Of a stretch of 64,000 nt of DNA, positions 7,698 to 45,957 are shown one piece after another. The stretch is from a virus. The stretch is from UHGV virus genome UHGV-1332848. One strand, 5' to 3'. Made by a program: the position numbers and the translations under genes. Within the stretch, counting starts at the first letter, position 1, and the number at the start of each line of letters is the position of its first letter. The notes under the pieces were generated by a model. The model saw only the letters and a list, made by a program, of their open reading frames with translations. It had not been told where the DNA came from and ran no database searches.

Positions 7698-8851
7698 ATG
7701 AAAGTTATTAAAAGAGACGGAACAGATGTAGATTTTCAAAAGGAGAAAATAGAAAATGCAATATTTAAAGCTATGAAAAATGGTAGTGGTGTAGTAAAGG
7801 AGAAGATTGCACAAAAGATATCAGAAGAAATACAACAATCTGCAATAAGTGTTCTATCAGTATCACAGATAGAAAAAATGGTTTATGATCTGTTAATTAA
7901 ATATAAACAAAAAGATACAGCTAGAGCATATGAGAGGTTCAGGGCAGTACAAGAATTTAAAAGAAATAATAATACAACAGACGAAAGTATACTAAGTCTT
8001 TTAAATAAAACTAATGAAGATGTTGCTAAAGAAAATTCCAATAAAAACTCAGTTATTGCGTCTACTCAAAGAGATTTGATAGCAGGTGAAGTTTCAAAAG
8101 ATATAGCAAAAAGAAAACTTATTCCAACACATATAGTTCAAGCACATGAAGAAGGGGCAATCCACTACCACGACCTAGATTATGCAATACAAAATATTTT
8201 CAATTGTTGTTTAATAAACCTACAAGACATGCTTGATAACGGGACGGTGATTAATGATAAATTAGTCGAATCACCAAAATCCTTTAGTACAGCATGTACA
8301 ATAACAACTCAAATAATGGCTCAAGTTGCAAGTAATCAGTACGGTGGACAAAGTATAACTATTGCACATTTAGCTCCTTATTTAAGAAGAACAAGAGACA
8401 AAGCATTTAAACATTATTATAATGACTTAGGCTTTGATGTTGAAACTTCTAATAAATTATCTAAAGATATAATGATGAAAGAACTTAAAGATGGTGTTCA
8501 GACTATAAGATATCAGCTTTCAACATTACAAACTACTAACGGTCAAGCTCCATTTGCAACTATTTACCTTGAAATTGATGAAGGTAATGAGTATGAGGAA
8601 GAAATGGCTTTGATTTGTGAAGAAATGATAAAGCAAAGATTAGAGGGCATGAAAAATTATAAAGGACAAGAAATAGGAGAGGCTTTCCCAAAACTTGTTT
8701 ATTTATTAGATGAACACAATTGTCTTGAAGGTGGAAAATATGACTACATAACTAAATTATCAGCTAAGTGTACAGCAAAAAGACTTGTTCCAGACTATCA
8801 GTCGGCAAAAATTATGAGAATGAATTATGAAGGAAATACTTTCCCACCGAT
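7698..8851 (+). CDS. nrdD: anaerobic ribonucleoside-triphosphate reductase NrdD, exon 1
   Basis: N-terminal ATP-cone (VIKRDGTDVDFQKEKIENAI); RBS AAGGGAGG. The ORF frame runs into a stop at 8858, just after the inferred 5' splice site (U8851). Confidence 0.75.
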
Positions 8852-9737
8852 AAACTAAAACTGTCGCATATAGTAGTGATATTATATGAAAACCCATCTA
8901 AACGGAGAAAGTCCTATATAAAGGATAACTCACCGTACTAAATTGTTGAATATTTAAAAATTAATTAAATAGGAGGTGTTATATTGTGGAAAGATATTCA
9001 AAATTGGGAAGATTTATATGAAGTTAGCGATACTGGGGAGGTTAGAAATAAATTATCCAATAATTTATTAGTTGGTGATATTAATAACGCAGGTTACTAT
9101 CGTGTATGTTTATATAATAAGAACCACATACCGCCAAAACAAAGGTTCTTTAGACATAGACTGGTGGCAAAACATTTTATAGATAACCATAAAAATCTAC
9201 CTCAAGTAAACCATATAGATGGTGATAAATCAAATAATTCGATGAATAACTTAGAATGGGTTAGCCCAAAAGAGAATGAAATACATAGTAGAAAAGTTAT
9301 TGGCGTAAAAGAATATAAACCATTTGCTGTAGTTTTTGATAATGGTAAAACCATTGTTTGTAATTCAAAATCAGAATTAAGCAATGAAATTGGGTTAACA
9401 AAAACTTCTATAAAAGAATGGTTGCATAAAGGTAACACCGGTTATTTAAAAAGAGGGATTAAAGATATATACTACATATAAAGTAAAAGTATTCAACATA
9501 AAAGTCTAAAGACTAACGAAAACAATTAATAGAGAAACACTATTAAGGGAATGAGTAGTGTAGAGCCACAAGCTTATGGTGGTAAGGCACGGGAGATAAG
9601 ACCTTTTAAATCGAAACGATGGGGCTCTTATCAATGGTAACAGTTGTAAGAGTGTGATATAGTCTAATATCTTATGGTAACATAAGGAAGTTCATAAGAG
9701 AACTGTACAACAGTTGCGATGTTGTATGAATATTATG
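8852..9737 (+). mobile_element. group I self-splicing intron interrupting nrdD, carrying a homing-endonuclease ORF
   Basis: Splicing U8851 to G9738 gives ...FPP-M-GCRSHVG...GRFNQGVISLNLPQIA. This matches, from memory, the conserved NrdD block (E. coli ...SPMGCRSFLG...GRNNLGVVSLNLPRIA). Intron ends in G (9737) and exon 1 ends in U. A structured GC-richer RNA segment lies at 9481-9737. Confidence 0.65.
8984..9481 (+). CDS. HNH homing endonuclease (NUMOD4 + HNH_3), intron-encoded
   Basis: NUMOD4-like WEDLYEVSDTGEVRN. HNH core VNHIDGDKSNNSMNNLEWVSPKEN. Own RBS AGGAGGTG. Confidence 0.85.
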   Translation: MWKDIQNWEDLYEVSDTGEVRNKLSNNLLVGDINNAGYYRVCLYNKNHIPPKQRFFRHRLVAKHFIDNHKNLPQVNHIDGDKSNNSMNNLEWVSPKENEIHSRKVIGVKEYKPFAVVFDNGKTIVCNSKSELSNEIGLTKTSIKEWLHKGNTGYLKRGIKDIYYI

Positions 9738-10701
9738 GGGATGTAGATCACATGTAGGATGTGGTTGGAAAGATGAAAATAACAACTATAAGTTTTACGG
9801 AAGATTTAATCAGGGTGTAATATCGTTGAATTTACCACAAATAGCAATTCTATCTAATGGAGATATTGAAACATTTTGGGATATACTTGACCAAAGATTA
9901 CAACTGTGTAAAGAAGCATTATTGGTTAGACATAATCATTTAATTGGAACTCTTTCAGATGTTTCACCTATTCATTGGCAACATGGAGCAATAGCCAGAC
10001 TAGATAAAGGAGAGAAGATAGATAAATTACTGCAAAATGGTTATTCTACACTTTCATTAGGGTATGTTGGTGTATGCGAGATGACATACGCTATGTTAGG
10101 TGTAAGTCATACGACACTTGAGGGTGAGAGGTTTGCTTTGGAAGTAATGAATCATATGAATGAAGCATGTCAAAAATGGAAAGATGAAACTGGATTAGGC
10201 TTCAGTCTATATGGCACTCCAGCAGAAAATTTAATATATAGATTTTGCAAACTAGACAAGCAAAGGTTCGGTAATATACCAAATGTAACAGATAAGTTAT
10301 ACTATACTAATTCTTATCATGTTCATGTTTGTGAAGAAATAGATGCATTTAGTAAATTAAAATTTGAATCTCAATTCCATAACATAAGCCTAGGTGGATG
10401 TATTTCTTATATAGAAGTTCCTGATATGAGCAAAAACTTAGATGCAATTGAACAAATTATAAACTTTATATATCACAATATACAATATGCAGAAATAAAT
10501 ACTAAACCAGATATCTGTTATAAATGTGGATTTACTGGTGAAATAAAGAATGATGATAACTTAGAATGGTATTGTCCTAATTGTGGCAATAGAGATGAGT
10601 CAGAAATGCAAGTAATGAGAAGAACTTGTGGTTATATAGGGACTAATTATTGGAATAAAGGAAGAACTGCTGAAATAAAAGATAGAGTAATTCATTTATA
10701 A
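9738..10701 (+). CDS. nrdD: anaerobic ribonucleoside-triphosphate reductase NrdD, exon 2
   Basis: Glycyl-radical motif RRTCGYIG near C-terminus; CPNCG zinc ribbon. The table ORF 9826-10701 is the in-frame tail of this exon. Confidence 0.75.
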
Positions 10702-10705
10702 GAAG

Positions 10706-11212
10706 GTGTTTTGTATGAATTATGCAGAAATTAAAAAGTTTGATATAGCTAATGCTCCAAAAGTTTGTTGTACAATATTTTTTAGTGGGTGTACTCATAA
10801 TTGCAAGGGATGCTTTAACAAAGAAGTACAAAATTTTAATTATGGAAAAGAATTTTCTAACGAGGTTATGAATTACTTCATAAGCAAAGCTAGTCATAAA
10901 CAGATTAAAAATATATGTATATTAGGAGGAGAACCGTTCCAGCAAGAAATTGATATAATGATTAATTTCCTTGAAAGGCTTAAAATTGAAGTTAAAAAAC
11001 CAATCTGGGTTTGGACGGGATATCTATACGAAGAGTTACTAAAAGACAGAAATAAAAATAGACTATTAAAATACATAGACGTTTTAATTGATGGTAGATT
11101 TGAATTGGATAAAAAAGATTTAAATTTAAGGTTTAGAGGTTCAAGTAATCAAAGAATTATAGATGTACAAAAAAGCCTTAAGCAAAATAGAATAATAGAA
11201 TTTTTATATTAA
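10706..11212 (+). CDS. nrdG: anaerobic RNR activating protein NrdG (radical SAM)
   Basis: CTHNCKGC radical-SAM cluster. Strong similarity to E. coli NrdG (FVSGCVHECPGC, IWVWTGY, RGSSNQ). Start may be MNYAEI. Confidence 0.85.
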   Translation: MFCMNYAEIKKFDIANAPKVCCTIFFSGCTHNCKGCFNKEVQNFNYGKEFSNEVMNYFISKASHKQIKNICILGGEPFQQEIDIMINFLERLKIEVKKPIWVWTGYLYEELLKDRNKNRLLKYIDVLIDGRFELDKKDLNLRFRGSSNQRIIDVQKSLKQNRIIEFLY

Positions 11213-40791: not shown

Positions 40792-43700
40792 TTATCTAGT
40801 ACCAGCTAATTCACCTATTTCTCTCATTGTTTCATATTTTGCCTCCTTAATCATCTTTTCCACTTTCGGCAATACATCTTCATTCATATTCCCTTTAACA
40901 ATTAATTTATATTCTAAGTTAATATCACCAATTTGTTGTTTAGAGTTTGCATTACTCATATTTCTATTTACATTTGAATTTAAATTCAAGTCAACCGTAC
41001 TAATGCCTTTCAACTCAGTTATGAATTTATCTAGGTTTCCTAGCCAATCATTTTGAATTATATCTCCAACATTTGTAAATGTAGATGTAATACTTTTGTT
41101 TGCATTACCTACGCTATCTAATACTGAGGATAAATCTCTAACACCATTCTGAACCATTTTAAGAATTTCTTCGTCTGTTAATTTACTATTAATTTCATCA
41201 ATTTTATTTTGAGCATTCTCTTCTATCCTTTCAAGTTCTTCATCGTATCTTTCATTAGCCTTATCTCTTTCATTATCTCTAATGAAGCTATTTATATCTT
41301 GCTGTGCCGATTCAATTTGCTTTTTAATATTAGCTATTAATTCCCCATCCGCCATTCTCATGGCATCTTGAAGTTGAGATTCTAGATCAATTAAACTATC
41401 TTGACGCTTCTTTAACTCGTCTCTATAATCATCTTCGTCCCATTCTTTATTTCTTAAATCTTTCCTTTTTTGAATAGCTTTTTTTAATGCATCAGTTTCT
41501 TTGTTAATGTTTTCTATATATGAATCTTTTTGCTTTTTAATTAACTCTACTATTTCTTTTTGTGTATCTATTGTAGTATTTTTTAAGTCTAATATAGCAT
41601 TGCTAACTTCTGGTATTTGATTAAGTAAAAGGTCATTATATCTTTCTAAACTTTCAGCAATAGCTTTGGCATTCTTTTGTGCATTTTCTCTGGCATCTCC
41701 GCTTAAACTATTAGCCCAGTTAGTAAGAGCGTCAAGCCTGCTATTAGCATTTGTTATCCTGCCACTACCATCAGCATTGAATCCATTGGCAACTAACGAA
41801 TTCTTTAATTCAGATAATTCCTTCTCTTGTTCTTTATTTTTATTTTTATATGCCATTTCTTGTTTTTTAATTAATTCTAATTCTTTCTCTAAGTATTTTA
41901 ATTTTTCTTCATCTGAAGTGTTTTCCATTAAAATTTTATTTCTATCTAATTCATTGTCTAATTCCTTTAATGCATTATTTACATCCCTATATCTATCAGA
42001 TAACTTCTCCATGTTGGCAATTTCTTTTTCAGCCTTATCTTTAGAACCCTTATCCCCTATTAATGAGCTTCCTCGTCCAAACGTTGGCGAAGAAGTGTTA
42101 AAACTGGCGTAAAATTCATTAAAAGCAGTATCTATTTTTGCCTTTTCAGTTTGTATAGTTTTTATTTGTTGTAGTGCTTTGGTTGCAAATTTTTCATTAT
42201 TAAGTGCATCTATAGACGTTGCAGATTCAACAGACTTTTCAGCAAAACTGTTTAACCTACTTTCAGCCTTACTTATCTGTTCGTCTAGTTTTGCAAGAAT
42301 TTTACTCTTCATTTCAGCCCAGCTACGTGCATTAGCTAAGTCATCTCTGTAAGTTTTCGCACTTCCCCCAAGTAAATTTGCTAGAAAATCAGATAAAGGT
42401 TCAGATAGTTTCGTAATAAACCCAGCTTTTGCTTCGTTTAAAGTAGCAAAATTATCTAAATCAAAATCATAACTTTCACTATTTACGTCCACAAATTGAC
42501 TAGCAAATTTATCAAATGCATTTTGAGCCTCAGAGCTATTTTTAATTTTTTCAGCATAGTATTTTTGATCATTACCTATCATTACTTGATATGCTTCTTG
42601 TTGTATTGCCACTTGATCTTGAATCTTGTTATTTAAATACTCTTGAACAGCGTTAATATCTGTAATATTCCCACCTAAATCAGAATAGTTTTTAGCAAGT
42701 TCAGCTACTATATCAGGTGTGAGTTGTTGCTCCTTATTTATCTTCTGTAGTAACGTGTCAAGTTTTTCCACTTCTTCAACTGCTTTACCATAGTTTTGAG
42801 TTGCTTGTTCTATTGATACTTCAGCAAATCCACCAACTTCGGCATCAACATTGTCTTGTTTTGCCTTAGTATTTTCTTTTGTTGCTTCTGTTGCTTTATT
42901 TACAGAATTTATATAATTATTAACAGCACTCGTGTCGAATCCCATTTGAGTTAATTGAGAAGATTTATATCCATTATCTAACAACCATTTTATATGAACT
43001 TGAGCTTGCGATGCTTTTAAGGTTGTATCCTGTATTTCCTGATTGAGCTTGTCTAAATCAGATTGTGTTACTTTTTGAGAATATGTACCAGTTGTAGTTT
43101 TACCTCTTTCAGTGTAAGATACCTGCTTTGTGTATTCTTCTCCTTTTATCATAGCAAGTTTCATTTCTTCATATTGCTTTTTCTTCTGTTCCAAAGCATT
43201 TAGTTCATTAGTCAATCCTCTGTTCGTTTCTATAAACCCTAAAGCTTCAATTTCCATTTGTTCTTTTTTTAATCTGATCTGTTCCTCAATTAACCCATTG
43301 TTTTGACTTATTGCATCTCCCTGTAAGCTAAAACCACTAGCTGACTCAGGGAGTACACTTGCCAGTTGTTTTTCTATCTCAACTAGTTGAGATTCCAAAT
43401 CTTTTCTTTGACTTAAATTTGAAGTATTTGTTATTTGTTGTTCTAGCTTTGTTTTTTCATCAAGTAATTTTTGTGCTTGGGTTATAGCTTTACCACTATC
43501 TGTAATAAAAGCAGTGGATTCAGCATTCATTTCTTTCATCTCTTCTTTTGTTACTATTAATTTGTCTATAAGTTTAGTTACGCCAGTTATTATTCCAGTT
43601 ATAGCAAAACTCAATCCTAAAGTCATAGTTGCTGTAGCCAAAGCAGATGCGACTTCAACAGCTTTAAAACTAACAGCTAACGCTGTATTTTTTGCACTTA

Positions 43701-45957
43701 AAACACTTGCTTTAGCACTAGCATTAGTCATACCATCAGCAAACTTGTTAAAAGCACCAGATATAACTCTACCTATACTCATTTGAGTAGCTTTAGCAAG
43801 ATTGTCTATTTTTAAAGACATTGATCCGACTATGGGAATTCCCTTGGAAATCCCCATATACATCTCTTTATTAAAAAGAACTAATGCGGTTGTAGCAACC
43901 CCTATTGTAGCAGGTAATGCTCCAAACGTATTAGCCATTCCACCGAATACTTCTAGTGAGGTTGTACCTAAATCCACAACGTTTTTTATAGTGTCCGAAT
44001 TAATTGCATTAACCCACACAGACTTCAATGTTTCAGAAAACTGATTCATTTTTCCCTCTATTGAGTCCATGAACCTCTGTTGTTCGTTATAAGCTGAACC
44101 AGAGCTTTCCAGTGCACTATTATAAGCTTCGATACCCTCTTGCATATTTTTCATAGTTCCCGAGAAGACATTCCCCTGTCTCTGACCAGCTATAACATAT
44201 TGCAAGTATGCTCTTTGCCCATCGGTCAATTTAGGATATACCTGTGCAAGTTCAGTCATTTGTTCATAAGTTGATTTAAAAGTATTGTCATCAACCATTA
44301 TGTCAACCATTTGTCCAGCAGAAGCAGTTAGTTGTTTTATTTCATCTCTTAATTTAGAAACTGGAACAGATGTTTCGTCTATCTCTGTTTTCATTCCACG
44401 TAATCTCATAGCGATTGTCTTGAGTGCTGTTCCTGTGACATCAGCATCTTGTATTGAAGCGTTTCCAGCAACAAATATTCCAACAGCTTGTTCATAACTG
44501 TTTCCAGCCTCATAAAGTGCATTACCCATTTTTTGCAATCCGTCAGCTACATCCTTGGTAGAACTTGAAAATTTATTTCCAGTATTATTAGCAACATCAA
44601 TTATTCTAGTAATATCTTCTAATGTGTTTAAATCAAAACCCTTGCTTATAGTAATAAGTGCCTTGGAAGCCTCGTCAATTGACTGGAAATCTCCTACATT
44701 TTTAAAAATTGTCGCTTGAGACGCTCTTTTAGATGCCTCATCAATAGCATATCCTAATTTTGAATAATATTCAGTTGCTTTAATAATATTTTCCGTACTT
44801 GTACCCACTTCTTTAGCCATATTATTAGCAACAGATGTAAACATATCTAACTGTTCTTGTGTAGCCTTAGCCACCTTTGCTAAGTCCCTCATAGCAGTAT
44901 CTAGCGAAATTATATCATTTATTCCTTTTCTTACTTCCGCTATCCCATTGTAAATAATGCTTCCACCAAAGGCATACATTCCCATTCTCTTAAATAAATT
45001 AGAAAATGAGGATTCATATTTAACTAATTCGTTAGTTTGAATCCTCATTTGACTTATTGTTGAATTTATTCTATTTTTTTCAGCAGTACCTAGTAAATTA
45101 TTTTGATTTTTCAAACTCTCTATGTTAGATATTTGTCTAGATATTTCATCATTTAACCGTTTCTGCTCTGTGGGTTTACCTCCACCTTTGTTATTAACAG
45201 CTTGCTGATATATCTTTAATTTTGCTATTGTTTTATCCAAATAATCATTCTGCTTTAATAAATCTTGATTAAATTTATTTATATTGCCAGTTTCAATTTT
45301 AGACTTAGCTATAGCATATTTGTCTTCAAGTATAGACCTTTCTTTTAATAAATTATTATATAAGGTTTCATCAGCTAAGTTGGATTTACTAACACTACTT
45401 ACACTTTCTTTGCTTATTTGTTGAGTATAATTCAATTGTTCTTGTAATACTTTTGCATATTCACCATCAGCAGTTAGTAACTTTGTTTTTAAATCATACT
45501 CAACTTTTTGTAATTGAACTATTTCTGAATAAGCGTTTTTCTTATTCTTGTCTACATCTCCAATAATACTAATATCTGTATTGCCATTGGTTAGATTCTT
45601 AACCGTTCTAACAGTTTCCTTTAACTGATTATTTATATCAGTTACAACTTTAACTTCCCCATCTGACATTAATTGAATTTTATATTTAGACATTCCTTGA
45701 ATTTCTCTTAGTGTTTTCGCTAATTTTTCTAGCGATTTTTCAGATGAGAGCCCGTCAATATCAAGTTTAGAACCACTTAGAGTTTTAATTTTTTTATTTA
45801 TCTTATCAATATTTTTATCAAAATTCATAAAATCTACATTTGTAATTTTTAAGTTTATTTGCTTAGAAACACTATCTAATATTCCTTGTGCTTCTTTCTT
45901 TAATTGATCAATAGAGTCGAACTGAATGCCAGAAGATACCATTAATCGTTTAGCCAT
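40792..45957 (-). CDS. tail tape measure protein (1721 aa)
   Basis: Size, extensive coiled coil, central TMP-type domain (AMRDLAKVAKATQEQLD...GTALKTIAMRLRG), hydrophobic TM-like core segments. Confidence 0.85.
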   Translation of the reverse strand: MAKRLMVSSGIQFDSIDQLKKEAQGILDSVSKQINLKITNVDFMNFDKNIDKINKKIKTLSGSKLDIDGLSSEKSLEKLAKTLREIQGMSKYKIQLMSDGEVKVVTDINNQLKETVRTVKNLTNGNTDISIIGDVDKNKKNAYSEIVQLQKVEYDLKTKLLTADGEYAKVLQEQLNYTQQISKESVSSVSKSNLADETLYNNLLKERSILEDKYAIAKSKIETGNINKFNQDLLKQNDYLDKTIAKLKIYQQAVNNKGGGKPTEQKRLNDEISRQISNIESLKNQNNLLGTAEKNRINSTISQMRIQTNELVKYESSFSNLFKRMGMYAFGGSIIYNGIAEVRKGINDIISLDTAMRDLAKVAKATQEQLDMFTSVANNMAKEVGTSTENIIKATEYYSKLGYAIDEASKRASQATIFKNVGDFQSIDEASKALITISKGFDLNTLEDITRIIDVANNTGNKFSSSTKDVADGLQKMGNALYEAGNSYEQAVGIFVAGNASIQDADVTGTALKTIAMRLRGMKTEIDETSVPVSKLRDEIKQLTASAGQMVDIMVDDNTFKSTYEQMTELAQVYPKLTDGQRAYLQYVIAGQRQGNVFSGTMKNMQEGIEAYNSALESSGSAYNEQQRFMDSIEGKMNQFSETLKSVWVNAINSDTIKNVVDLGTTSLEVFGGMANTFGALPATIGVATTALVLFNKEMYMGISKGIPIVGSMSLKIDNLAKATQMSIGRVISGAFNKFADGMTNASAKASVLSAKNTALAVSFKAVEVASALATATMTLGLSFAITGIITGVTKLIDKLIVTKEEMKEMNAESTAFITDSGKAITQAQKLLDEKTKLEQQITNTSNLSQRKDLESQLVEIEKQLASVLPESASGFSLQGDAISQNNGLIEEQIRLKKEQMEIEALGFIETNRGLTNELNALEQKKKQYEEMKLAMIKGEEYTKQVSYTERGKTTTGTYSQKVTQSDLDKLNQEIQDTTLKASQAQVHIKWLLDNGYKSSQLTQMGFDTSAVNNYINSVNKATEATKENTKAKQDNVDAEVGGFAEVSIEQATQNYGKAVEEVEKLDTLLQKINKEQQLTPDIVAELAKNYSDLGGNITDINAVQEYLNNKIQDQVAIQQEAYQVMIGNDQKYYAEKIKNSSEAQNAFDKFASQFVDVNSESYDFDLDNFATLNEAKAGFITKLSEPLSDFLANLLGGSAKTYRDDLANARSWAEMKSKILAKLDEQISKAESRLNSFAEKSVESATSIDALNNEKFATKALQQIKTIQTEKAKIDTAFNEFYASFNTSSPTFGRGSSLIGDKGSKDKAEKEIANMEKLSDRYRDVNNALKELDNELDRNKILMENTSDEEKLKYLEKELELIKKQEMAYKNKNKEQEKELSELKNSLVANGFNADGSGRITNANSRLDALTNWANSLSGDARENAQKNAKAIAESLERYNDLLLNQIPEVSNAILDLKNTTIDTQKEIVELIKKQKDSYIENINKETDALKKAIQKRKDLRNKEWDEDDYRDELKKRQDSLIDLESQLQDAMRMADGELIANIKKQIESAQQDINSFIRDNERDKANERYDEELERIEENAQNKIDEINSKLTDEEILKMVQNGVRDLSSVLDSVGNANKSITSTFTNVGDIIQNDWLGNLDKFITELKGISTVDLNLNSNVNRNMSNANSKQQIGDINLEYKLIVKGNMNEDVLPKVEKMIKEAKYETMREIGELAGTR

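What the first reader, a model, noticed from the sequence alone, without database searches (positions are those of the whole stretch)
7698..10701. nrdD split by a group I intron carrying an HNH/NUMOD4 homing endonuclease
The NrdD reading frame is broken at 8851 and resumes at 9738. Joining U8851 to G9738 gives ...NTFPP-M-GCRSHVGCGWKDENNNYKFYGRFNQGVISLNLPQIA. This matches, from memory, the conserved NrdD block (E. coli ...SPMGCRSFLG...GRNNLGVVSLNLPRIA), and the split codon AT|G restores a Met. The 886-nt intervening sequence ends in G. It carries a free-standing HNH endonuclease ORF with its own RBS and a GC-richer structured tail (9481-9737). This mirrors the T4 nrdD (sunY) intron/I-TevIII arrangement in a different, low-GC phage. 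It is also a case where naive ORF calling yields two false gene fragments.
Basis: partly seen in the sequence, partly recalled or inferred. Interest (0 to 1): 0.6.

Follow-up and report, generated by a model that had tools for sequence, protein, structure and literature searches.

The report
Self-splicing intron splitting phage nrdD

Summary
nrdD is broken at 8851/9738. Joining U8851 to G9738 gives a stop-free 705-aa NrdD, 76% identical end to end to the uninterrupted NrdD of Clostridioides phage ES-S-0173-01, with an identical junction (NTFPP-M-GCRSH).

The 886-nt insert is a subgroup IA, T4-td-like group I intron. P1 to P9.2 can all be placed, with a U·G pair at the 5' splice site and a terminal G. 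The helices covary across same-site nrdD introns in other phages, and the guide sequence changes with the exon three ways. A covariance model built only from metagenomic relatives hits the window (E=2e-19) and all three proven T4 introns (E=1e-18 to 2.5e-25).

The 165-aa NUMOD4/HNH ORF sits in the P6a loop and resembles I-HmuI (1U3E, E=2.7e-17).

It also lies about 115 codons upstream of this site, with its ORF 3' of the core. The suggested Rfam test is negative, but Rfam also misses T4 td and nrdB.

Splicing has not been shown experimentally. Split phage nrdD genes are well documented, so this is a new member of a known kind, of modest interest.

The parts
7698..8851 (+). nrdD exon 1: ATP-cone plus the N-terminal half of NrdD. 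It ends with the first two bases (AU) of the Met386 codon.
   Evidence: Pfam ATP-cone E=1.3e-17 and NRDD E=1.9e-69, profile positions 1-249. Collinear with the uninterrupted NrdD of L001.
8852..9737 (+). Group I intron, subgroup IA and td-like. It is 886 nt long; the ribozyme is 355 nt without the P6a loop.
   Evidence: Helices verified; covariation; model R1 gives 85.6 bits, E=2e-19.
8848..8866 (+). P1. Exon/intron strand CGAU|A (8848-8852) pairs with the internal guide UGUCG (8862-8866). U8851·G8863 is the wobble pair at the 5' splice site. The exon-1 frame stops at UAA 8856-8858, in the P1 loop.
   Evidence: 5/5 pairs. The guide covaries with the exon: CGAU/GUCG here, CCAU/GUGG in TR-TP2 and L079, GCAU/GUGC in L031, L040 and L066.
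8867..8888 (+). P2 hairpin, 9 bp, with a GUGA (GNRA) loop.
   Evidence: 9/9 pairs. Six different strand pairs among six introns, all fully paired; the loops I read in the five nrdD-site sequences are GNRA.
8893..8898 (+). P3 5' strand CCCAUC. It pairs with GAUGGG at 9618-9623, 719 nt away, and forms a pseudoknot with P7.
   Evidence: 6/6 pairs. Six distinct complementary strand pairs across the relatives and T4 td.
8902..8936 (+). P4 (8902-8905/8933-8936), P5 (8907-8908/8930-8931) and P5a (8911-8915/8922-8926).
   Evidence: Recovered by MFE folding. P4 shows ACGG/CCGU versus AAGG/CCUU versus CAU/GUG. P5a has six distinct strand pairs.
8937..8955 (+). P6 5' strand (AC, 8937-8938, pairing with GU at 9504-9505) and P6a 5' strand (8944-8955, pairing with 9487-9498). 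P6a is a 12-bp clamp around the ORF.
   Evidence: 12/12 pairs. P6 is AC/GU here and GC/GC in td, L031 and L002. P6a differs in sequence in every ORF-bearing relative but always brackets the ORF.
8971..8976 (+). Shine-Dalgarno sequence AGGAGG for the endonuclease ORF, 7 nt upstream of the TTG start.
   Evidence: Read directly from the sequence.
8984..9481 (+). Intron-encoded homing endonuclease, 165 aa, with NUMOD4 and HNH_3 domains. It is I-HmuI-like and lies in the P6a loop.
   Evidence: Pfam. PDB 1U3E I-HmuI E=2.7e-17 over residues 2-150. 60% identical to the L040 intron ORF and 50% identical to TR-TP2 over the catalytic half.
9487..9505 (+). P6a 3' strand (9487-9498) and P6 3' strand (9504-9505).
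9511..9515 (+). P7 5' strand GACUA. It pairs with UAGUC at 9660-9664. G9511-C9664 is the candidate guanosine-binding pair.
   Evidence: 5/5 pairs. The first P7 pair is G-C in all 72 sequences with letters there, and the helix is 99% paired. RNAalifold predicts the helix independently.
9526..9583 (+). Peripheral hairpins between P7 and P3', the subgroup IA hallmark. P7.1 is 9526-9532/9540-9546. The P7.2-like hairpin is 9565-9569/9579-9583.
   Evidence: GCCAC/GUGGU, GCCAU/AUGGU and GCCGC/GCGGU are seen among window, L040, L031 and L066. Family P7.1 and P7.2 covary.
9618..9623 (+). P3 3' strand GAUGGG.
9625..9652 (+). P8 (CUCUUA/UAAGAG) with an extension capped by a GUAA loop.
   Evidence: 6/6 pairs. 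Six unrelated P8 sequences at the same position in the relatives.
9653..9664 (+). J8/7 (UGUGAUA) and the P7 3' strand (UAGUC). Together they form the conserved GAUAUAGUC 'S' element.
   Evidence: GAUAUAGUCU is invariant in the alignments. It is identical in T4 td.
9670..9727 (+). P9 (9670-9676/9681-9687, GUAA loop), P9.1 (9689-9693/9700-9704) and P9.2 (9705-9712/9720-9727).
   Evidence: All fully paired. In the 73-sequence alignment, 6 of 7 P9 pairs and 7 of 7 P9.2 pairs show changes on both sides.
9737..9737 (+). Terminal guanosine (omega-G) of the intron, preceded by the conserved UGAAUA.
   Evidence: All five same-site constructs and T4 td end ...UGAAYA(N)1-4G.
9738..10701 (+). nrdD exon 2. 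G9738 completes the Met386 codon. Codon 9742-9744 encodes the cysteine that aligns with T4 NrdD C290. The exon also carries the Gly_radical domain, with the sequence RRTCGYIG near the C-terminus.
   Evidence: Pfam NRDD E=7.8e-109 and Gly_radical E=3.3e-19. Alignment to T4 NrdD 1H78 puts PMGCRS at residues 287-292. There is no start codon between the stop at 9727 and the TTG at 9826.
10715..11212 (+). nrdG (activase) directly downstream, giving the operon context.
   Evidence: Pfam Fer4_12 E=2.9e-43 and Radical_SAM. L001 has the same gene order.

Best explanation
Window 8852-9737 is a mobile, self-splicing group I intron of subgroup IA. It belongs to the same RNA family as the T4 td and nrdB introns. 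It is inserted in the Met386 codon of a phage nrdD gene, two codons upstream of the cysteine that aligns with the catalytic Cys290 of T4 NrdD.

Inferred mechanism:
1. nrdD-nrdG is transcribed as one pre-mRNA.
2. The last four exon bases, CGAU, pair with the internal guide GUCG to form P1, with U8851·G8863 marking the 5' splice site.
3. The P3-P8 and P4-P6 domains and the P3/P7 pseudoknot fold around it.
4. A free guanosine bound at the P7 G9511-C9664 pair attacks after U8851.
5. The terminal G9737 then takes its place, and the exons are ligated to AU|G.
6. The spliced mRNA encodes a 705-aa NrdD.

Separately, the 165-aa I-HmuI-like HNH enzyme is translated from its own SD/TTG inside the P6a loop. 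It is expected to nick or cut intron-less nrdD alleles of co-infecting relatives near CCNCCNATGGGNTGTAGA. Repair from the intron-bearing copy then spreads the intron (homing).

Shown here: the exon junction, the RNA architecture with covariation, homology to proven introns, and the identity of the endonuclease family.
Inferred: actual splicing, nuclease activity, and the nuclease's target.
For: 1. The junction restores a full-length NrdD, 76% identical to an uninterrupted homologue and identical at NTFPPMGCRSH.
2. All core helices are placed and fully paired at window coordinates. MFE folding recovers P1, P2, P4/P5 and P6a on its own.
3. Five further introns sit at the identical codon position: TR-TP2, L031, L040, L066 and L079. 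They form the same helices with different sequences. P1 covaries with the exon in three combinations.
4. RNAalifold on 41 relatives independently predicts P7, P7.1, P7.2, P9, P9.1 and P9.2, with 19 of 31 pairs compensatory. On 73 sequences, 97.4% of cells are paired, against 74% in shuffles and 24-41% with slid partners. 26 of 31 pairs change on both sides, and 0 of 500 shuffles reach the observed values.
5. Model R1 contains no window or T4 sequence. It scores the window at 85.6 bits (E=2e-19). It scores the experimentally established T4 introns at 109 bits (nrdB), 104 bits (td) and 83 bits (nrdD).
6. The window intron aligns collinearly with T4 td through P3, J3/4, P4, J6/7, P7, J8/7, P9.2 and the 3' terminus.
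7. The ORF is a full-length I-HmuI homologue. It lies in the P6a loop, where the I-TevI ORF lies in td.
8. Neither ORF fragment can encode the cysteine codon without splicing.
9. Exons and ORF are intact, and an empty-site allele exists in the closest phage.
Against: There is no experimental evidence of splicing or cleavage for this sequence.

Rfam RF00028 gives no hit, even at E<=10 on the isolated region, or on the ORF-less relatives. This is weakened by the control: RF00028 also misses the proven T4 td and nrdB introns.

P1 is short (5 bp). P10 is at most 1-2 bp.

The A3 alignment used for the pair counts was fitted to the model, so it leans towards the structure.

The residue preceding the catalytic His is N in the window (VNHIDG) and D in I-HmuI (VDHKDG). 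I could not test what this means for activity.
Confidence: 0.93

Rival explanations
1. The gene is split by a free-standing homing endonuclease insertion with no RNA splicing. The two NrdD halves are translated separately and assemble, as reported for Aeromonas phage Aeh1 nrdA split by mobE.
For: ORF callers give two NrdD fragments and an independent HNH gene. Split but functional RNR genes without introns are described in the literature (PMC3653736).
Against: The break falls inside a codon. Exon 2 has no start codon from the stop at 9727 to the TTG at 9826, so residues 386-414, including the catalytic Cys, would be lost. The 355 nt flanking the ORF form a conserved, covarying group I core, which a free-standing HEG does not need. 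ORF-less versions of the same insert occupy the same site (L031, L066).
Confidence: 0.02
2. The element is a decayed group I intron that no longer splices, which would leave nrdD a pseudogene in this phage.
For: Splicing is untested. P1 is only 5 bp and P10 is minimal. The T4 record documents decayed intron components: its I-TevIII is defective.
Against: Every core helix is fully paired. The invariant elements (GACUA, GAUAUAGUC, the P9.1 hairpin and UGAAUA...G) are intact. The model score lies between those of the functional T4 introns. Both exons, the endonuclease ORF and the downstream nrdG are free of frameshifts and stops. That is not expected if selection on nrdD had been lost.
Confidence: 0.04
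3. The insert is another kind of intervening element, namely an intein or a group II intron.
For: Inteins are frequent in RNR genes (PMC3653736).
Against: The insert is not in frame: a stop occurs 5 nt into it. No intein or reverse-transcriptase domain was found; the only ORF is NUMOD4/HNH. The RNA matches the group I architecture and the T4 introns.
Confidence: 0.005

Closest known systems
Phage T4 td intron with I-TevI (subgroup IA; experimentally self-splicing)
   Same: The RNA core is collinear (P1-P9.2, with P7.1 and P7.2 between P7 and P3'). The J3/4-P4, J6/7-P7 and J8/7-P7' elements are near-identical. The ORF is in the P6a loop. An in-frame stop lies just inside the intron. Model R1 hits both.
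   Different: The host gene is thymidylate synthase rather than nrdD. The endonuclease is GIY-YIG (I-TevI), not HNH. P9.1 differs (CUGGAUAUAAUUCCGG in td, GUUCAUAAGAGAAC here). The window has larger P7.1 and P7.2 insertions.
Phage T4/RB3 nrdB intron with I-TevIII
   Same: It is the best-scoring T4 intron with the family model (109 bits). It shares the exact P9.1 hairpin GUUCAUAAGAGAAC. It carries an HNH-family endonuclease and sits in an RNR gene.
   Different: The host gene is nrdB (class Ia beta subunit). The T4 record and PMC1865063 describe I-TevIII as an HNH-family enzyme that makes a double-strand break as a dimer. It is defective in T4. I did not compare its sequence with the window ORF.
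Phage T4 nrdD (sunY) intron with I-TevII
   Same: Same host gene family (class III RNR large subunit) and the same intron class. Model R1 gives 83 bits.
   Different: The insertion site is about 115 codons upstream. The ORF lies 3' of the ribozyme core. The endonuclease is GIY-YIG. Rfam RF00028 recognises it but not the window intron.
Bacillus phage SPO1 DNA polymerase intron endonuclease I-HmuI (PDB 1U3E)
   Same: The window ORF aligns over residues 2-150 at E=2.7e-17. It shares the N-terminal NUMOD4-type domain, the HNH core (..H.DG.K.NN...NL.WV) and a C-terminal helical DNA-binding region.
   Different: About 34% identity. The host gene and target site differ. The residue before the catalytic His is N rather than D. 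That I-HmuI nicks one strand is from my own knowledge and is only assumed for this enzyme.
Same-site nrdD introns in Thomasclavelia phages TR-TP1/TR-TP2, Peptacetobacter sp. AB800 and IMG/VR contigs (L031, L040, L066)
   Same: The insertion point in the Met codon of the PMGCR motif is identical. They share the same intron subfamily and homologous I-HmuI-like ORFs in P6a. ORF-less forms also exist.
   Different: The sequences have diverged, with compensatory helix changes. GenBank annotates TR-TP2 as two NrdD CDSs plus an HNH CDS, with no intron feature.
Split nrdD genes of Jug (jumbo gut) phages and other phages
   Same: [quoted passage not shown]
   Different: The phage lineages and hosts differ. 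I did not establish whether any of those introns use this insertion site.

Membership tests
Group I intron | P1 helix between the 5' exon end and an internal guide sequence, with a U·G wobble pair at the cleavage site | tested here: met
   CGAU|A (8848-8852) pairs with UGUCG (8862-8866), and U8851·G8863 is the wobble pair. Guide and exon covary in three combinations across the same-site introns.
Group I intron | The intron ends in a guanosine (omega-G) | tested here: met
   G9737. All same-site relatives and T4 td end UGAAYA(N)1-4G.
Group I intron | Conserved core: P3-P8 and P4-P6 domains, with a P3/P7 pseudoknot in the canonical order P1-P2-P3-P4-P5-P6-P7-P3'-P8-P7'-P9 | tested here: met
   All helices are fully paired in that order. 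Each helix except P7 and P9.1 is formed by 2-6 different strand pairs in the six introns compared: 2 for P6, 4 for P1 and P4, 5-6 for the rest. The 3' domain shows 97.4% pairing, and 26 of 31 pairs change on both sides.
Group I intron | Guanosine-binding site at a G-C pair in P7 | tested here: inconclusive
   G9511-C9664 is present, and that pair is G-C in all 72 sequences with letters there. An invariant pair is consistent with the feature but does not demonstrate binding.
Group I intron | Homology to experimentally proven group I introns | tested here: met
   Model R1, built without T4 or window sequences, gives E=2e-19 for the window, 2.5e-25 for T4 nrdB, 5.5e-24 for td and 1e-18 for nrdD. 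The alignment with td is collinear.
Group I intron | Recognition by Rfam RF00028 (database recognition, not a biological property) | tested here: inconclusive
   No hit for the window or the ORF-less relatives. The same search also misses the proven T4 td and nrdB introns and finds only T4 nrdD, so the test does not discriminate.
Group I intron | GTP-dependent self-splicing with exon ligation | not testable with these tools
   Requires an in vitro transcription and splicing assay, or RNA from infected cells.
Group I intron subgroup IA | Extra helices P7.1 and P7.2 between P7 and the 3' strand of P3 | tested here: met
   103 nt lie between P7 (ending at 9515) and P3' (starting at 9618), with hairpins at 9526-9546 and 9565-9583. 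Family P7.1 and P7.2 covary. The T4 record labels td, nrdB and nrdD as group IA introns. Assignment to IA2 rests on my own knowledge and was not tested.
HNH homing endonuclease, I-HmuI-like | HNH catalytic domain and NUMOD4 N-terminal module above curated thresholds | tested here: met
   NUMOD4 scores 41.1 bits against a cut-off of 23.4. HNH_3 scores 30.4 bits against a cut-off of 24.8.
HNH homing endonuclease, I-HmuI-like | Full-length similarity to the solved I-HmuI, including the catalytic His | tested here: met
   1U3E at E=2.7e-17, query residues 2-150 against chain residues 3-150. VNHIDGDKSNN aligns with VDHKDGNKDNN.
HNH homing endonuclease, I-HmuI-like | Site-specific nicking or cleavage of the intron-less allele | not testable with these tools
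   Requires purified protein and an nrdD target of the ES-S-0173-01 type.
Class III (anaerobic) ribonucleotide reductase NrdD | NRDD fold with the finger-loop catalytic Cys and the C-terminal glycyl-radical motif, plus an adjacent NrdG activase | tested here: met
   The spliced product covers Pfam NRDD positions 1-562 and the Gly_radical domain. PMGCRS aligns with T4 residues 287-292, so the Cys is at 290. The sequence RRTCGYIG is present. nrdG follows. The catalytic role of C290 and the reading of RRTCGYIG as the glycyl-radical motif are from my own knowledge (Logan et al. 1999).

The most novel reading that the evidence does not exclude
The Met-Gly-Cys finger-loop codons of nrdD may be a previously uncatalogued, recurrently used homing site for one td/nrdB-like intron subfamily with I-HmuI-type nickases. 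The site would span phages of Clostridia, Peptostreptococcaceae and Erysipelotrichales. All stages of the homing cycle are present in sequence databases: the empty site (ES-S-0173-01), ORF-bearing introns (window, L040, TR-TP2, L079) and ORF-less introns (L031, L066). On this reading the subfamily would be a compact natural system for studying intron/endonuclease gain and loss. It would also explain a systematic annotation gap, because RF00028 and gene callers miss it.
Probability: 0.45. Interest if true: 0.35.

Novelty: new member of a known kind. Interest (0 to 1): 0.3.

Why it matters
Annotation: without the intron call, this phage and relatives such as Thomasclavelia phage TR-TP2 appear to carry two truncated NrdD genes. 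The true product is one 705-aa enzyme whose catalytic cysteine is encoded only in the spliced mRNA.

Detection: this is a concrete example of a blind spot. Rfam RF00028 misses td-like phage introns, including two of the three classic T4 introns and even ORF-less members of this family.

Biology: it adds another case of a homing element sitting on the most conserved, catalytically essential codons of a nucleotide-metabolism gene. It also offers a small set of same-site alleles (empty, ORF-plus and ORF-minus) for studying homing-cycle dynamics. It does not change current understanding of group I introns.

Tried and rejected
Rfam. The gathering-threshold search of the whole window and the E<=10 search of 8750-9850 gave no group I hit. 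There was also none in the related loci, including ORF-less introns. The control on T4 shows that RF00028 finds only the sunY intron, so I did not use the negative result as evidence.

MAFFT alignment of ten ORF-trimmed full-length introns (A1). It misplaces P8, P9.2 and P1 in the more distant members. I therefore did not run pair counts on it. I used explicit helix verification and a model-based alignment of the 3' domain (A3) instead.

Full-length covariance model. I did not attempt one, because about 330 positions would exceed the calibration limit. As a result, P1-P6 and P3 are supported only by the six-sequence comparison, not by a large alignment.

The search for related loci with the HNH protein. 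It returned only one distant locus and was of no use.

Second R1 hit in the window (40983-41096, minus strand, E=0.085). It lies inside an uninterrupted 1721-aa ORF, so I judged it a chance match.

Genome-contig pattern scan. Only 2 of the 11 hits (L079, L070) contain the intron according to R1. The others look like chance matches to the degenerate pattern.

Same-site hypothesis with T4 nrdD. Rejected: the T4 intron is at a different position.
Full report
**The observation**

The window carries an ORF at 7698-8858 that matches the ATP-cone domain and positions 1-249 of the Pfam NRDD profile. The translation of 9739-10698 matches NRDD positions 263-562 and the glycyl-radical domain. Between them lies a 165-aa ORF (8984-9481, TTG start, AGGAGG seven bases upstream) with NUMOD4 and HNH_3 domains. 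nrdG follows directly.

Joining 7698-8851 to 9738-10701 gives 2118 nt with one terminal stop. The 705-aa product is 76% identical, in a global alignment, to the uninterrupted 706-aa NrdD of Clostridioides phage ES-S-0173-01. That phage is the closest sequenced relative. The junction peptide NTFPP-M-GCRSH is identical in both. At DNA level the intron-less gene reads CCT ATG GGT TGT, and the window reads CCG AT|...|G GGA TGT. The boundaries U8851 and G9738 are therefore fixed to the nucleotide.

The intervening 886 nt end in G9737.

**What the intervening sequence is**

Rfam gave nothing. There was no hit at gathering threshold on the whole window, at E<=10 on 8750-9850, or on ORF-less relatives. 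I therefore tested the group I hypothesis by anatomy and by comparison.

MFE folding of an ORF-trimmed construct recovered P1, P2, P4/P5 and a 12-bp P6a that clamps the ORF. By inspection, and then by script, all canonical helices can be placed and are fully paired:

| Helix | Window coordinates | Note |
|---|---|---|
| P1 | 8848-8852 / 8862-8866 | U8851·G8863 wobble at the 5' splice site |
| P2 | 8867-8888 | GUGA loop |
| P3 | 8893-8898 / 9618-9623 | pseudoknot with P7 |
| P4 | 8902-8905 / 8933-8936 | |
| P5, P5a | 8907-8908 / 8930-8931; 8911-8915 / 8922-8926 | |
| P6 | 8937-8938 / 9504-9505 | |
| P6a | 8944-8955 / 9487-9498 | brackets the ORF |
| P7 | 9511-9515 / 9660-9664 | |
| P7.1, P7.2-like | 9526-9546; 9565-9583 | between P7 and P3' |
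| P8 | 9625-9652 | |
| P9 | 9670-9687 | GUAA loop |
| P9.1 | 9689-9704 | |
| P9.2 | 9705-9727 | |
| terminal G | 9737 | omega-G |

Without the 531-nt P6a loop that holds the ORF, the ribozyme is 355 nt.

**Comparative evidence**

A blastn search with the 3' part found weak similarity to hundreds of phage loci, including Staphylococcus, Enterococcus, Bacillus AR9/PBS1 and Vibrio phages. A pattern scan of viral contigs for the conserved P7'-P9-P9.1 element returned 62 loci.

Five other sequences carry an intron at exactly the same codon of nrdD:
- Thomasclavelia phage TR-TP2, annotated in GenBank as two NrdD CDSs plus an HNH CDS;
- IMG/VR loci L040 (887 nt, with a homologous ORF), L031 (300 nt, ORF-less) and L066 (325 nt, ORF-less);
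- a Peptacetobacter sp. AB800 contig, L079.

In these sequences the exon bases preceding the splice site differ, and the guide sequence changes to match: CGAU/GUCG, CCAU/GUGG and GCAU/GUGC. In the six introns compared helix by helix (window, L040, TR-TP2, L031, L066 and T4 td), P2, P3, P5a and P8 are each formed by six different strand pairs, P6a, P9 and P9.2 by five, and P4 by four; all are fully paired except the T4 td P5a strings I chose, which pair at 3 of 4 positions.

For the contiguous 3' domain, RNAalifold on 41 relatives independently predicts P7, P7.1, P7.2, P9, P9.1 and P9.2. 19 of the 31 pairs are compensatory. On a 73-sequence model-based alignment:
- 97.4% of cells are paired, against 74% for shuffles and 24-41% for slid partners;
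- 26 of 31 pairs change on both sides;
- no shuffle out of 500 reaches the observed values.

That alignment was fitted to the model, which favours the structure. The slid-partner control and the independent RNAalifold result argue that the signal is real.

**Link to proven introns**

I retrieved the T4 td, nrdB and nrdD regions from the T4 record. Covariance model R1 was built from the 41 metagenomic 3' domains only. Its scores are:

| Target | Bits | E-value |
|---|---|---|
| T4 nrdB intron | 109 | 2.5e-25 |
| T4 td intron | 104 | 5.5e-24 |
| window 9608-9732 | 85.6 | 2e-19 |
| T4 nrdD intron | 83 | 1e-18 |

A ten-sequence alignment shows the window intron to be collinear with td from P3 through the 3' terminus. 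The J3/4-P4 (CUAAACGG), P4'-J6 (CCGUNCUAAAU), J6/7-P7 (..CUAANGACUA) and J8/7-P7' (GAUAUAGUCU) elements are near-identical. The presence of P7.1 and P7.2 between P7 and P3' places it in subgroup IA, which is also how the T4 record labels its three introns.

As a control on the Rfam negative, RF00028 detects the T4 nrdD intron (105 bits) but misses both T4 td and T4 nrdB. Its silence on the window therefore says little.

**The endonuclease**

The ORF aligns over residues 2-150 with I-HmuI, the HNH nicking endonuclease of the SPO1 DNA polymerase intron (PDB 1U3E, E=2.7e-17). It is 60% identical to the ORF of the L040 intron. It is 50% identical to that of TR-TP2 over the N-terminal catalytic half, and their C-terminal DNA-binding parts diverge. 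It lies in the P6a loop, the position of I-TevI in td.

**The insertion site**

Aligned to the solved T4 NrdD (1H78), the PMGCRS motif occupies residues 287-292. The intron therefore splits the codon equivalent to Met288, two residues before Cys290. From my own knowledge of Logan et al. 1999, Cys290 is the thiyl-radical cysteine at the finger-loop tip.

Exon 2 has no start codon between the in-frame stop at 9727 and the TTG at 9826. This cysteine can therefore only be translated from spliced mRNA. That argues against a model in which a split gene yields two working polypeptides.

The T4 record shows that the nrdD (sunY) intron encodes I-TevII, a GIY-YIG enzyme. I-TevIII is the defective HNH ORF of the nrdB intron.

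The T4 nrdD intron interrupts the gene between residues ~235 and ~273 in window numbering, about 115 codons upstream of this site. Its ORF lies 3' of the ribozyme core.

The present element is therefore not a counterpart of the sunY intron. It is a td/nrdB-like ribozyme, carrying an I-HmuI-like ORF, at a different nrdD site.

**Mechanism**

Shown:
- the exact exon junction;
- the group I architecture, with covariation;
- homology to proven self-splicing introns;
- an intact I-HmuI-family ORF with its own ribosome-binding site;
- an empty-site allele in the closest phage;
- ORF-plus and ORF-minus introns at the same site in other genomes.

Inferred:
- guanosine-initiated two-step transesterification removes 8852-9737 from the nrdD-nrdG transcript;
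- exon-1 translation terminates at UAA 8856-8858 on unspliced RNA;
- the endonuclease nicks or cuts intron-less nrdD near the insertion site and drives homing by recombinational repair.

**Novelty and interest**

Group I introns with homing endonucleases in phage ribonucleotide reductase genes are textbook. A 2013 survey found nrdD to be the most commonly split RNR gene in phages (PMC3653736). Jug phages have nrdD fragmented in 95 of 104 genomes, with group I introns common in those genomes and spliced reads shown for nrdD (PMC12880540).

Most sequenced phages are uninterrupted at this site: 2506 of 2701 NrdD-bearing records cover at least 80% of the junction region in one place.

What is new here is a specific member: this site, this ribozyme/ORF combination and this phage lineage. 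The practical point is that Rfam and gene callers miss it. I rate it as a new member of a known kind, interest 0.3.

Noticed in passing
L002 1459-2724, 2852-3358, 3671-4582 (GenBank PQ571310, Thomasclavelia phage TR-TP2): The published annotation lists an 'NrdD-like' CDS, an HNH endonuclease and a second 'anaerobic ribonucleoside reductase large subunit' CDS. These are in fact one nrdD gene with an 877-nt intron at the same site, and the record has no intron feature.
   Followed up: yes
L068 7653-7884 (-); L069 5463-5609 (-) and 10553-10703 (-): Rfam RF00028 detects the T4 nrdD (sunY) intron at 105 bits. It gives no hit at E<=1 for the proven T4 td and nrdB introns, or for the ORF-less td-like introns L031 and L066. 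This is a sensitivity gap for this subfamily.
   Followed up: partly
L019, L034, L050 (7 hits each), L062 (5), L012 (4), L029 and L070 (3): Several IMG/VR contigs and an Oscillospiraceae MAG contain many tandemly spaced matches to the intron 3'-domain model within a few kb. These appear to be intron-dense regions, but I did not identify the host genes.
   Followed up: no
window 9689-9704; T4 nrdB intron in L069: The P9.1 hairpin GUUCAUAAGAGAAC is present in all 41 seed sequences, which were selected by a pattern containing it, and in the window. It is also identical in the T4 nrdB intron, which the pattern did not select. T4 td has CUGGAUAUAAUUCCGG instead. Such conservation of a peripheral hairpin suggests a tertiary contact or a protein-binding role, which I did not explore.
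   Followed up: no
L079 ~1200-2300 (Peptacetobacter sp. AB800, NZ_JBLOUI010000003, 123-kb contig): A bacterial genome assembly holds an nrdD gene with an intron at the same site and an HNH ORF. The 123-kb contig could be a prophage or a co-assembled phage of the ES-S-0173-01 type.
   Followed up: partly
L003 890-3152 (Vibrio phage BONAISHI) and L004 1860-2576 (Enterococcus phage EF1): In BONAISHI, nrdB is annotated as two beta-subunit CDSs separated by an HNH endonuclease, and the intervening DNA resembles the window's P7.2-P8 region. EF1 has an HNH ORF annotated 'Phage intron' that is followed by a 96-bit match to the intron model.
   Followed up: partly
window 8850-8858: On unspliced RNA the exon-1 reading frame runs AUA AAC UAA and stops 5 nt into the intron, inside the P1 loop. 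In L040 the stop comes later, at the UAA in the 5' strand of P2 (by my reading; the other same-site introns look similar). An early stop may keep ribosomes out of the ribozyme core.
   Followed up: no
window 10706-10717: The mechanical ORF for nrdG starts at GTG 10706. Comparison with the ES-S-0173-01 NrdG (MNMKYAEIRKFD) suggests that the real start is ATG 10715 (MNYAEIKKFD).
   Followed up: partly
window 40983-41096 (-): A weak match to the intron model (15.6 bits, E=0.085) lies inside an uninterrupted 1721-aa ORF (40792-45957, minus strand). I judged it a chance match.
   Followed up: yes
window 1-23300 (+) versus 24500-63200 (-): The window has two divergent blocks. Small ORFs on the plus strand include nrdD and nrdG. 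A long run of large ORFs lies on the minus strand, including ORFs of 1721 aa and 1064 aa, which looks like a phage structural module. The only near DNA match in the phage collection is the 113-kb Clostridioides phage ES-S-0173-01, at 79% over exon 2.
   Followed up: no
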